Assembly: GCA_009914755.4 (NCBI GenBank)
Contig: CP068257.2
Coordinates: 32,160,001 to 32,224,000 of the forward strand
Reading direction: 5' to 3'
Origin: the human T2T-CHM13v2.0 reference genome, Homo sapiens
Length of the DNA: 64,000 bases
In this document: positions 27,467 to 28,017 of the stretch, one piece after another
How positions within the stretch are numbered: position 1 is the stretch's first letter
Layout of the letters: every line of letters begins with the position of its first letter
Notes under the pieces: generated by a model
The model's database searches: none
Told to the model about the DNA's origin: nothing
Seen by the model: only the letters and a program-made list of their open reading frames with translations
Position numbers and translations under genes: made by a program

Positions 27467-27707
27467 TGTTTGTTTATTTTTTGTTTTTGAGACGGAGTCT
27501 CTCTCTGTCGCCCAGGCTGGAGTGCAGTGGCGCGATCTCGGTTCCCTGCAAGCTCCGCCTCCCGGGTTCACGCCATTCTCCTGCCTCAGCCTCCCGAGTA
27601 GCTAGGACTACAGGCACCCGCCACCACGCCCGGCTAATTTTTTTGTATTTTTAGTAGAGATGGGGTTTCACCGTGTTAGCCAGGATGGTCTCAATCTCCT
27701 GACCTCA
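27467..27707 (-). mobile_element. AluY-like, antisense, 5'-truncated, flanked by a TSD
   Basis: Starts tttgtttgtttattttttgtttttgagacggagtctctctctgtcgcccagg and ends ...ctcctgacctcag. The TSD agaaagagtttt lies at 27455..27466 and 27708..27719. Confidence 0.93.
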
Positions 27708-27720
27708 GAAAGAGTTTTAA

Positions 27721-28017
27721 GGCCGGGCGCGGTGGCTCACGCCTGTAATCCCAGCACTTTGGGAGGCCGATGTGGGCGGATCACAAGGTCAGGAGATTGA
27801 GACCATCCTGGCTAACACGGTGAAACCCCGTCTCTACTAAAAATACAAAAAAAAAAAAAATTAGCCGGGCATAGTGGCGGGCGCCTGTAGTCCCAGCTAC
27901 TCGGGAGGCTGAGGCAGGAGAATGGCATGAACCCGGGAGGCGGAGCTTGCAGTGAGCCGAGATCGCGCCACTGCACTCCAGCCTGGGCAACAGAGTGAGA
28001 ATCCTTCCAAAAAACAA
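27721..28017 (+). mobile_element. AluY, sense. It lies 13 bp from the preceding antisense Alu, so the two form an inverted pair.
   Basis: Starts ggccgggcgcggtggctcacgcctgtaatcccagcactttgggaggccgatgtgggcggatcac and ends ...ccactgcactccagcctgggcaacagagtgag. Confidence 0.95.

What the first reader, a model, noticed from the sequence alone, without database searches (positions are those of the whole stretch)
27467..28017. Inverted Alu pair separated by only 13 bp, a potential intronic dsRNA hairpin
An antisense AluY-like element (27467..27707, with its own TSD agaaagagtttt) is followed 13 bp later by a sense AluY (27721..28017). Both are close to consensus, so an ITSN1 pre-mRNA transcribed through them can fold into a long near-perfect stem about 240 bp long. 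Closely spaced inverted Alus are, by established knowledge, the main substrate for ADAR A-to-I editing. They can also promote nuclear retention or circular-RNA formation and are prone to deletion or rearrangement. The spacer is unusually short, and the second Alu appears to have inserted right at the edge of the first. The site lies between the SH3A microexon and the SH3A C-terminal exon.
Basis: partly seen in the sequence, partly recalled or inferred. Interest (0 to 1): 0.5.

Follow-up and report, generated by a model that had tools for sequence, protein, structure and literature searches.

The report
Inverted Alu pair in ITSN1 intron
Two Alu retrotransposon copies sit head-to-head 14 bp apart inside an intron of the intersectin-1 gene and are predicted to fold into a roughly 215-bp RNA hairpin; this is an ordinary, well-described kind of RNA-editing substrate, not a new kind of feature.

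Summary
A 5'-truncated antisense Alu (27465-27706) with a perfect 12-bp target-site duplication lies 14 bp from a full-length sense Alu (27721-28013). Both are in the 8.5-kb ITSN1 intron between the VKGEW microexon (24229-24243) and the exon starting at 32774, and the gene is on the + strand.

The + strand RNA folds into a 215-bp stem (MFE -463.7 kcal/mol, z = -37.7).

- The antisense copy lacks Alu positions 1-64, so the complementary arms are 80 nt apart, not 13.
- The stem has 11 interruptions and is 92.9% paired.
- The same target sequence appears three times (27453, 27707, 28014), so one Alu inserted into the other's target-site duplication. The truncated antisense copy probably came second, at a perfect TTTT/AA L1 endonuclease site 2 nt from the sense Alu's 5' end.
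- Both arms lie in one intron. According to the literature, that favours linear splicing over circRNA formation, and nuclear retention applies to 3'UTR pairs.
- The 80-nt effective spacer and about 7% arm divergence put the pair outside the highly unstable palindrome class.

A-to-I editing is very likely but could not be tested here. Verdict: real, ordinary, a known kind, low interest.

The parts
27453..27464 (+). Target-site duplication copy 1 (AGAAAGAGTTTT), left flank of the antisense Alu
   Evidence: Exact 12/12 direct repeat with 27707-27718 (D3). It also matches the 14-mer pattern with up to 2 mismatches.
27465..27488 (-). A-tail of the antisense Alu, read as an interrupted poly-T on the + strand
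   Evidence: Sequence and alignment tail AAAAACAAAAAATAAACAAACAAA.
27489..27706 (-). Body of the 5'-truncated antisense Alu (AluY-like), consensus positions 65-281
   Evidence: BLAST to the recalled AluY consensus gives 95.4% over 218 nt, against 91.8% to AluSx. Alignment shows 9 mismatches in 217 bases. Rfam Metazoa_SRP partial hit at E = 2.9e-12.
27707..27720 (+). Spacer, which is the middle copy of the target site (AGAAAGAGTTTTAA). It is both the right-hand TSD of the antisense Alu and the 5' TSD of the sense Alu. It contains the L1 endonuclease consensus TTTT/AA at 27715-27720.
   Evidence: L1 endonuclease consensus as stated in Cook 2011.
27721..28013 (+). Full-length sense Alu (AluY-like), with a middle A-run expanded to A14 and a short terminal A-tail (28009-28013)
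   Evidence: BLAST to the recalled AluY consensus gives 92.7% over positions 1-279, against 89.6% to AluSx. Alignment shows 13 mismatches in 280 bases. Rfam Metazoa_SRP partial hits at E = 5e-11 and 1.5e-10.
28014..28027 (+). Third, degenerate copy of the target site (ACAAAGACTTTTAA, 12/14), taken as the 3' TSD of the sense Alu
   Evidence: It is one of only 4 matches with up to 2 mismatches in the window (1.83 expected by chance). Three of the four sit exactly at the three Alu boundaries.
27478..27705 (+). 5' arm of the predicted pre-mRNA hairpin
   Evidence: MFE structure with 215 pairs in 12 helices, the longest 62 bp.
27706..27785 (+). 80-nt hairpin loop, made of the spacer plus the first 65 nt of the sense Alu, which have no partner because the antisense copy is truncated
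   Evidence: loop 80 nt; I2: 80 nt between arms.
27786..28020 (+). 3' arm of the predicted pre-mRNA hairpin. It includes the 7-nt A bulge at about 27847-27853.
24229..24243 (+). Context: ITSN1 SH3A neuronal microexon (VKGEW), the upstream boundary of the host intron
   Evidence: AG|GTTAAAGGGGAATGG|GTAAGT.
32774..32900 (+). Context: start of the SH3A C-terminal exon ([30 protein letters not shown]...), the downstream boundary of the host intron

Best explanation
These are two independent, L1-mediated Alu retrotransposition events nested at one target site in an ITSN1 intron.

Inferred sequence of events:
1. A full-length AluY-like element inserted in the sense orientation. It duplicated AGAAAGAGTTTTAA, after a first-strand nick on the minus strand at TTCT/AA.
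2. A second AluY-like RNA was later reverse-transcribed from a + strand nick at the perfect TTTT/AA site inside that 5' duplication, 2 nt from the first Alu's 5' end.
3. This second insertion was 5'-truncated at Alu position 65 and duplicated AGAAAGAGTTTT.

The result is a head-to-head inverted pair.

Expected behaviour when ITSN1 is transcribed:
- The antisense arm emerges first and the sense arm about 80 nt later.
- The two arms zip into a hairpin of about 215 bp, 93% paired.
- This is a standard nuclear substrate for ADAR A-to-I editing and for dsRNA-binding or unwinding proteins.
- The hairpin is removed with the intron.

No selected function is implied. The arrangement is shown. The order of insertion, the folding in vivo and the editing are inferred.
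For: Anatomy:
- There are three copies of the target sequence, exactly at the three element boundaries.

Fit to target-primed reverse transcription (TPRT):
- The + strand reads ...GAGTTTT, followed directly by poly-T and the antisense Alu.
- This is what priming from a TTTT/AA nick predicts (mechanism as summarised in Cook 2011).
- Alu target-site duplications are described there as enriched L1 endonuclease targets that attract further insertions.

Folding:
- MFE is -463.7 kcal/mol, against -194.4 +/- 7.2 for shuffles, z = -37.7.
- The stem has 215 pairs in helices up to 62 bp.
- All 215 pairs persist in a 1.5-kb context.

Host transcript: the gene is on the + strand and both arms lie in one intron.

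Editing expectation:
[quoted passage not shown] The optimal configuration is a short loop of 10-50 nt.
- 96% of predicted dsRNAs and 95% of editing sites within protein-coding genes are intronic.
- The stem has 6 A/C and 3 C/A oppositions and 93 paired adenosines.

Order of insertion:
- In the shared region, the sense copy has lost more CpGs (8 of 18, against 5 of 18).
- The sense copy has a much shorter A-tail.
- Its outer duplication differs at 2 of 14 positions, while the antisense Alu's duplications are 12/12 identical.
- With the sense copy first, both nicks fall at good L1 endonuclease sites.
Against: No RNA-seq, editing catalogue or primate orthologue could be consulted, so editing and insertion order are untested.

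The age difference between the copies is small and not statistically significant. After removing the subfamily positions 89 and 96, the counts are 7/217 against 11/280.

The two G/C differences in the third duplication are unusual transversions.

In a 5-kb thermodynamic fold, the pair partly swaps partners with the neighbouring inverted pair at 29164-29422 / 29703-29992. Enforcing the adjacent hairpin costs only 4.7 kcal/mol out of about -1940. The hairpin is therefore near-optimal and kinetically favoured, but it is not the only structure.

The Alu consensus sequences were recalled from memory. They are supported by a 98.9% match to another copy in the window.
Confidence: 0.85

Rival explanations
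1. The anatomy is the same but the order is reversed. The truncated antisense Alu inserted first at TTTT/AA, and the full-length sense Alu inserted later, re-duplicating the right-hand target copy.
For: The final arrangement would be identical. The divergence of the two copies from consensus is statistically indistinguishable. The left boundary of the third target copy merges with the A-tail, so its length is uncertain.
Against: - The younger duplication would then be the one with 2 of 14 differences, and the older one would be 12/12 identical.
- The sense Alu's first-strand nick would fall at TTCT/GA, which departs further from the TTTT/AA consensus than TTCT/AA does.
- The sense copy has more CpG decay and a far shorter A-tail.
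Confidence: 0.3
2. The hairpin is a selected cis-regulatory element. It might tune inclusion of the neuronal VKGEW microexon, or circRNA output from ITSN1, by recruiting ADAR, DHX9 or NF90 or by sequestering Alus.
For: Intronic inverted Alu pairs can shift the splicing of nearby exons, as in the RABL5 example. Pairing within an intron competes with pairing across introns. The pair lies in the intron immediately downstream of the microexon. The 5-kb fold shows it can exchange partners with neighbouring Alus.
Against: - The pair is 3.2 kb from the microexon donor site and 4.75 kb from the next acceptor site.
- Both elements decay at CpGs like neutral Alus.
- The one ITSN1 circRNA found in the literature has a 90%-matching homologue in mouse. 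Alus are primate-specific, so that circRNA does not appear to depend on Alus.
- No paper was found that links ITSN1 splicing to Alus or editing.
Confidence: 0.05
3. At the DNA level, the pair is a fragile quasi-palindrome that promotes hairpin or cruciform formation, double-strand breaks and deletions.
For: - Single-stranded DNA is predicted to form the same hairpin (-280.9 kcal/mol, z = -41.9).
- Full-length inverted Alu pairs with spacers of 24 bp or less are about 13-fold rarer than direct pairs, with an inverted-to-direct ratio of 0.073-0.076.
- Hairpin-type exclusion of Alu pairs is thought to act up to about 100 bp.
- Divergent and widely spaced inverted Alus become recombinogenic when they lie in long single-stranded DNA.
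Against: - The complementary arms are 80 nt apart, not 14.
- Going from a 12-bp to a 20-bp spacer already cuts recombination about 40-fold. 94% homology cuts rearrangement about 15-fold.
- A 52-bp spacer gave no frequent replication stalling in eukaryotic cells.
- There is an A/C opposition at the arm end next to the loop, and mismatches near the centre of symmetry are strongly stabilising.
- The pair has survived long enough to accumulate 3-4% divergence.
- Part of the low inverted-to-direct ratio is attributed to insertion bias rather than loss.
Confidence: 0.12
4. The pair arose in a single retrotransposition event, by twin priming or by simultaneous TPRT from both staggered nicks.
For: The two nick sites inferred for the two elements are the same pair of phosphodiester bonds, 12-14 bp apart.
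Against: - A single event would leave target duplications only on the outside. Here a complete third copy sits between the elements.
- Each element has its own A-tail.
- Together they exceed one Alu length.
- They differ at 16 aligned positions, several of them not at CpGs.
Confidence: 0.03
5. The hairpin is a precursor of Alu-derived microRNAs or endogenous siRNAs.
For: Rfam gives sub-threshold matches to Alu-derived miRNA families: mir-1268 at 65.7 and 63.7 bits, and mir-3135 and mir-1972. A paper on DICER/ADAR1 processing of Alu small RNAs exists (title only).
Against: All matches fall below the families' gathering scores (83, 80 and 90 bits). Any Alu copy would produce them. There is nothing specific to this locus.
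Confidence: 0.02

Closest known systems
Intronic inverted-repeat Alus (IRAlus), the main ADAR A-to-I editing substrates
   Same: Two Alus lie in opposite orientation in one Pol II transcript, close together and of high identity. They are predicted to form an intramolecular duplex over 200 bp long.
   Different: One arm is 5'-truncated, so the duplex covers Alu positions 65-281 only. The start-to-start distance is 256 nt, below the best-edited 300-400 nt bin of Athanasiadis 2004. Editing at this locus was not observed here.
Alu quasi-palindromes (12-bp spacer constructs of Lobachev and colleagues; 'hairpin Alu pair exclusions' of Cook et al. 2011)
   Same: Head-to-head Alus with a 14-bp element-to-element spacer and about 93% arm identity. 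The single-stranded DNA hairpin is strongly predicted.
   Different: The distance between complementary sequences is 80 nt, and the arms are not full length. The pair therefore falls outside the range where strong instability was measured. It would also not count as a full-length Alu pair in Cook's census, which required 275-325 bp.
Retrotransposon insertion into a pre-existing Alu target-site duplication (Cook et al.'s 'TSD' class and 'CLIQUE' clusters)
   Same: The second element used an L1 endonuclease site inside the first element's duplication, giving nested target copies.
   Different: Such insertions are reported to favour direct orientation. Here the duplication ended in TTTTAA, which presents the endonuclease consensus on the opposite strand and gave an inverted pair.
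circRNA-promoting IRAlus across flanking introns
   Same: Same sequence family and the same pairing chemistry.
   Different: Both arms are in the same intron, a configuration described as favouring canonical linear splicing.
3'UTR IRAlus that cause paraspeckle nuclear retention, and long near-perfect dsRNA MDA5 ligands
   Same: An inverted Alu duplex.
   Different: This pair is intronic and not in the mature mRNA. It has 215 bp and 92.9% pairing, against the >300 bp and >96% criterion used for putative MDA5 substrates.

Membership tests
Alu SINE | 7SL-derived dimeric sequence of about 280 bp matching the Alu consensus | tested here: met
   95.4% (positions 65-281) and 92.7% (positions 1-279) identity to the recalled AluY consensus. 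That consensus matches another copy in the window at 98.9%. Partial Rfam Metazoa_SRP matches on both elements, E from 3e-12 to 1.5e-10, below the gathering score as expected for Alus.
Alu SINE | 3' A-rich tail and flanking target-site duplications at an L1 endonuclease-type site | tested here: met
   The antisense copy has a 24-nt tail, a 12/12 TSD and a TTTT/AA site. The sense copy has a 5-6-nt tail and a 12/14 TSD.
   Both copies match the recalled AluY consensus better than the recalled AluSx consensus (95.4 against 91.8%, and 92.7 against 89.6%). Both carry 89T and 96C, which are shared by most older Alus in the window. No curated subfamily library was available.
Intramolecular IRAlu dsRNA (ADAR substrate class) | Two Alus in opposite orientation within one transcription unit | tested here: met
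   ITSN1 is on the + strand. Both elements lie in the intron 24244-32773.
Intramolecular IRAlu dsRNA (ADAR substrate class) | Stable long duplex predicted for the transcribed strand | tested here: met
   215 bp, -463.7 kcal/mol, z = -37.7. The duplex is retained in a 1.5-kb context. In a 5-kb context it is near-degenerate with partner-swapped alternatives.
Intramolecular IRAlu dsRNA (ADAR substrate class) | Clustered A-to-G mismatches in RNA against the genome | not testable with these tools
   No RNA-seq data or editing catalogue was available. Literature searches for ITSN1 editing found nothing specific to this locus.
Highly unstable Alu quasi-palindrome (Lobachev class) | Complementary arms separated by no more than about 12-20 bp | tested here: not met
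   There are 80 nt between the arms.
Highly unstable Alu quasi-palindrome (Lobachev class) | High arm homology (about 86-100%) | tested here: met
   213 matches, 16 mismatches and one 7-nt gap. That is 93% identity excluding the gap and 90.3% including it.
circRNA-promoting IRAlus | Arms located in different introns that flank the back-spliced exon(s) | tested here: not met
   Both arms are in one intron.
Nuclear-retention IRAlus | Located in the 3'UTR of the mature mRNA | tested here: not met
   The pair is intronic, 3.2 kb and 4.75 kb from the flanking exons.
Putative MDA5-class long dsRNA | >300 bp and >96% of nucleotides paired | tested here: not met
   215 bp, with 430 of 463 arm nucleotides paired (92.9%).
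Alu-derived miRNA families (mir-1268, mir-3135, mir-1972) | Score at or above the Rfam gathering threshold | tested here: not met
   Scores of 65.7 against 83, 42.9 against 80, and 32.8 against 90 bits.

The most novel reading that the evidence does not exclude
The pair may be a 'survivor by truncation'. Inverted Alu insertions into the 5' target-site duplication of an existing Alu would persist in the germline mainly when the incoming copy is 5'-truncated. Truncation turns a palindrome with a spacer under 20 bp into a hairpin with a long asymmetric loop (80 nt here).

If this holds genome-wide, the strong depletion of closely spaced inverted full-length pairs would have a measurable selective component, separate from insertion bias. 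Loci like this one would mark the stability threshold in humans.

A less likely variant is that the hairpin modulates splicing of the adjacent neuronal microexon.
Probability: 0.15. Interest if true: 0.3.

Novelty: already known. Interest (0 to 1): 0.12.

Why it matters
It matters little on its own. Inverted Alu pairs in introns are among the most common structured elements in human pre-mRNAs. One preprint predicts about 1.7 repeat-derived dsRNAs per kb of genome, with 96% of those in protein-coding genes lying in introns.

The locus is a clean textbook example of two things:
- Nested L1-mediated insertion into a target-site duplication. Three copies of the target site record the history.
- The gap between element spacing and arm spacing. 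The element-to-element spacer (14 bp) can badly misstate the distance that matters for hairpin formation (80 nt) when one element is truncated.

That second point is useful as a caution for automated searches for 'dangerous' palindromes or strong dsRNA.

Tried and rejected
1. Comparative or population evidence.
- An exact-match scan of metagenome contigs with a 28-mer spanning the left flank and the duplication found nothing.
- Four ORFs spanning the junctions and flanks were looked up in the assembly collection, and none was on record.
- Insertion order and polymorphism therefore stay untested.

2. Gene conversion between the arms. I considered this because the 62-bp helix next to the loop is nearly perfect and both copies share 78T, 89T and 96C. 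I rejected it. 89T and 96C occur in most Alus of the window, and 78T recurs at a CpG in two unrelated copies.

3. Post-insertion central deletion as the cause of the truncation. I rejected this because an intact target copy abuts the truncated end.

4. Single-event origin. I rejected this because of the middle target copy and the two separate A-tails (see rivals).

5. miRNA identity. All Rfam hits are sub-threshold and generic to Alus.

6. Literature on ITSN1 editing, Alus and circRNA. Nothing concerns this locus. According to the paper, the one circITSN1 found has a mouse homologue with a 90% sequence match.

7. Lobachev 2000 (PMC313988) is not held in the library. Its results are cited only as summarised by later papers.

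8. TSD identity as a clock for insertion order. With both elements about 3-4% diverged, 0/12 and 2/14 differences are each compatible with either order. I use this only as weak support.

Full report
**What is there**

Reading 27200-28300 and searching for repeats shows two Alu elements in opposite orientation.

The left element, read on the minus strand:
- The body at 27489-27706 aligns to positions 65-281 of the Alu consensus, with 9 mismatches in 217 bases.
- A 24-nt interrupted A-tail follows at 27465-27488.
- The exact 12-nt direct repeat AGAAAGAGTTTT flanks it at 27453-27464 and 27707-27718.

The right element, on the plus strand:
- It is full length, with its body at 27721-28008.
- It has 13 mismatches in 280 bases.
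- The middle A-run is expanded to A14 and the terminal A-tail is only about 5-6 nt.

I wrote the consensus sequences from memory, but three results support them:
- The recalled AluY consensus matches another Alu in the window (378-658) at 98.9%.
- Rfam independently gives partial 7SL (Metazoa_SRP) matches on both elements.
- Both copies fit AluY better than AluSx.

About 29 Alu copies of at least 150 nt lie in the 64-kb window. Among the 28 adjacent pairs, the next-closest inverted pair is 280 bp apart, against 14 bp here.

**Gene context**

The spliced translation of the exon pieces at about 21.6 kb and 32.8 kb matches PDB 6h5t (Intersectin-1) at E = 1.6e-53. The 15-nt microexon GTTAAAGGGGAATGG (VKGEW) lies at 24229-24243 between AG and GTAAGT. 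The next exon begins at 32774, after ttttccacag. The gene is therefore on the + strand. Both Alus lie in one 8.5-kb intron, 3.2 kb from the microexon donor site and 4.75 kb from the next acceptor site.

**History of the site**

The 14-mer AGAAAGAGTTTTAA occurs, with up to two mismatches, four times in the window, where 1.83 are expected by chance. Three of these copies sit exactly at the three Alu boundaries: 27453, 27707 and 28014. This is the signature of one insertion into the target-site duplication of another.

On the + strand, the first copy ends in TTTT and runs straight into the poly-T and antisense Alu. Target-primed reverse transcription from a + strand nick at the L1 endonuclease consensus TTTT/AA predicts exactly this (mechanism as summarised). 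That site, at 27715-27720, lies 2 nt from the 5' G of the sense Alu.

I infer that the sense Alu came first, with the duplication AGAAAGAGTTTTAA and a minus-strand nick at TTCT/AA. The truncated antisense Alu came second. The grounds are:
- The sense copy has lost more CpGs in the shared region (8 of 18, against 5 of 18).
- The sense copy has a much shorter A-tail.
- Its outer duplication differs at 2 of 14 positions, while the antisense Alu's duplications are identical.
- This order puts both first-strand nicks at good endonuclease sites.

These grounds are weak individually, because the overall divergence of the two copies is similar. I give this order about 0.65-0.7.

A single-event origin is unlikely, because a complete target copy lies between the elements and each element has its own tail. 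A later central deletion is unlikely, because an intact target copy abuts the truncated end. Shared substitutions between the arms do not require gene conversion. Positions 89T and 96C are common to most Alus in the window, and 78T recurs at a CpG.

Cook et al. 2011 describe Alu target duplications as preferred sites for further L1-mediated insertion, usually in direct orientation. Here the duplication happened to end in TTTTAA, which offers the consensus on the other strand.

**Folding**

The + strand RNA 27453-28025 folds with an MFE of -463.7 kcal/mol. Shuffles give -194.4 +/- 7.2, so z = -37.7.

The main stem has these properties:
- It pairs 27478-27705 with 27786-28020.
- It has 215 pairs (119 G-C, 93 A-U, 3 G-U) in 12 helices of up to 62, 35, 32 and 25 bp.
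- It has 11 interruptions.
- 92.9% of arm nucleotides are paired.

The loop is 80 nt, not 13. It consists of the 14-nt spacer plus the first 65 nt of the sense Alu, which have no partner because the antisense copy is truncated. The arms differ at 16 aligned positions and by a 7-nt A bulge. Nine of the differences are A/C or C/A oppositions.

The hairpin is fully retained in a 1.5-kb context. In a 5-kb context, the thermodynamic optimum partly swaps partners with the neighbouring inverted pair at 29164-29422 / 29703-29992. Enforcing the adjacent hairpin costs only 4.7 kcal/mol out of about -1940. The adjacent hairpin is therefore near-optimal. Its 3' arm is transcribed more than 1 kb before any competing partner, so I infer that it is kinetically favoured.

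**How it most likely works**

By established knowledge, intramolecular inverted Alu pairs are the main ADAR substrates:
- Editing rises with proximity and homology. The optimum is two Alus separated by a short loop (Athanasiadis 2004).
- Within protein-coding genes, about 95% of editing sites and 96% of predicted dsRNAs are intronic.

I therefore expect this hairpin to be edited in ITSN1-expressing cells and then discarded with the intron. That step is inferred and was not tested.

- circRNA formation is promoted by pairing across introns that flank exons. Pairing within one intron favours linear splicing.
- Paraspeckle nuclear retention concerns 3'UTR pairs.
- The duplex misses the >300 bp and >96% paired criterion used for putative MDA5 ligands.

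**DNA stability**

Single-stranded DNA is predicted to form the same hairpin. Full-length inverted Alu pairs with spacers of 24 bp or less are about 13-fold rarer than direct ones, so the element spacing is indeed unusual.

The relevant distance for hairpin or cruciform formation, however, is the 80 nt between the complementary sequences, and three measurements bear on it:
- Widening the spacer from 12 to 20 bp already lowers recombination about 40-fold.
- 94% homology lowers rearrangement about 15-fold.
- A 52-bp spacer abolished frequent replication stalling in eukaryotic cells.

Part of the depletion is attributed to insertion bias rather than loss. This pair would also not be counted in that census, because one member is shorter than 275 bp. 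I rate strong fragility at about 0.12.

**What could not be done**

No editing catalogue, RNA-seq data, structural-variant database or primate genome was reachable. A metagenome scan and four exact-protein look-ups for junction-spanning ORFs found nothing. Literature searches on ITSN1 with editing, Alu or circRNA returned nothing about this locus. Lobachev 2000 is not held in the library.

**Verdict**

It is overstated on loop tightness, circRNA formation, nuclear retention and instability, and it probably has the insertion order backwards. This is a known kind of feature with no sign of selected function, so interest is low (0.12).

The most novel reading still open is that 5' truncation is what allowed such a closely spaced inverted insertion to persist. 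A genome-wide RepeatMasker comparison could test this.

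Noticed in passing
window 378-658 (-): A very young Alu, 278/281 identical to the recalled AluY consensus. Its differences at consensus positions 145 (G>A) and 174 (C>T) are changes I recall as Ya-lineage diagnostic, and it also has 236 C>T. It could be a recent or polymorphic insertion.
   Followed up: no
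window 29164-29422 (-) and 29703-29992 (+): A second head-to-head inverted Alu pair with a 280-nt gap lies in the same ITSN1 intron. A third sense Alu follows 109 nt further on (30102-30384). In a 5-kb MFE fold these elements exchange partners with the studied pair.
   Followed up: partly
window 34998-35184/35170-35451 and 62182-62458/62404-62591 (all -): Overlapping or abutting same-orientation Alu hits suggest Alu-into-Alu or tail insertions of the direct kind, which Cook et al. describe as common.
   Followed up: no
window 24229-24243 (+): The ITSN1 neuronal 15-nt microexon GTTAAAGGGGAATGG (VKGEW) has AG and GTAAGT flanks. The flanking SH3A exon pieces lie at about 21.6 kb and from 32774.
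   Followed up: yes
window about 40213 and about 56129 (+): Further SH3-type exon translations (…[20 protein letters not shown]… and …[11 protein letters not shown]…) show that the window spans several ITSN1 SH3 domains.
   Followed up: no
window 27841-27854 (+): The middle A-rich linker of the sense Alu is expanded to A14, against about A6 in the consensus. This produces the only multi-nucleotide bulge (7 nt) in the hairpin.
   Followed up: yes
window 27550-27948 (-): Rfam's best 'hit' over the pair is MIR7723, a long-hairpin miRNA precursor family, at 77 bits against a gathering score of 200. This is an artefact of matching any long inverted repeat to a long-hairpin model.
   Followed up: yes
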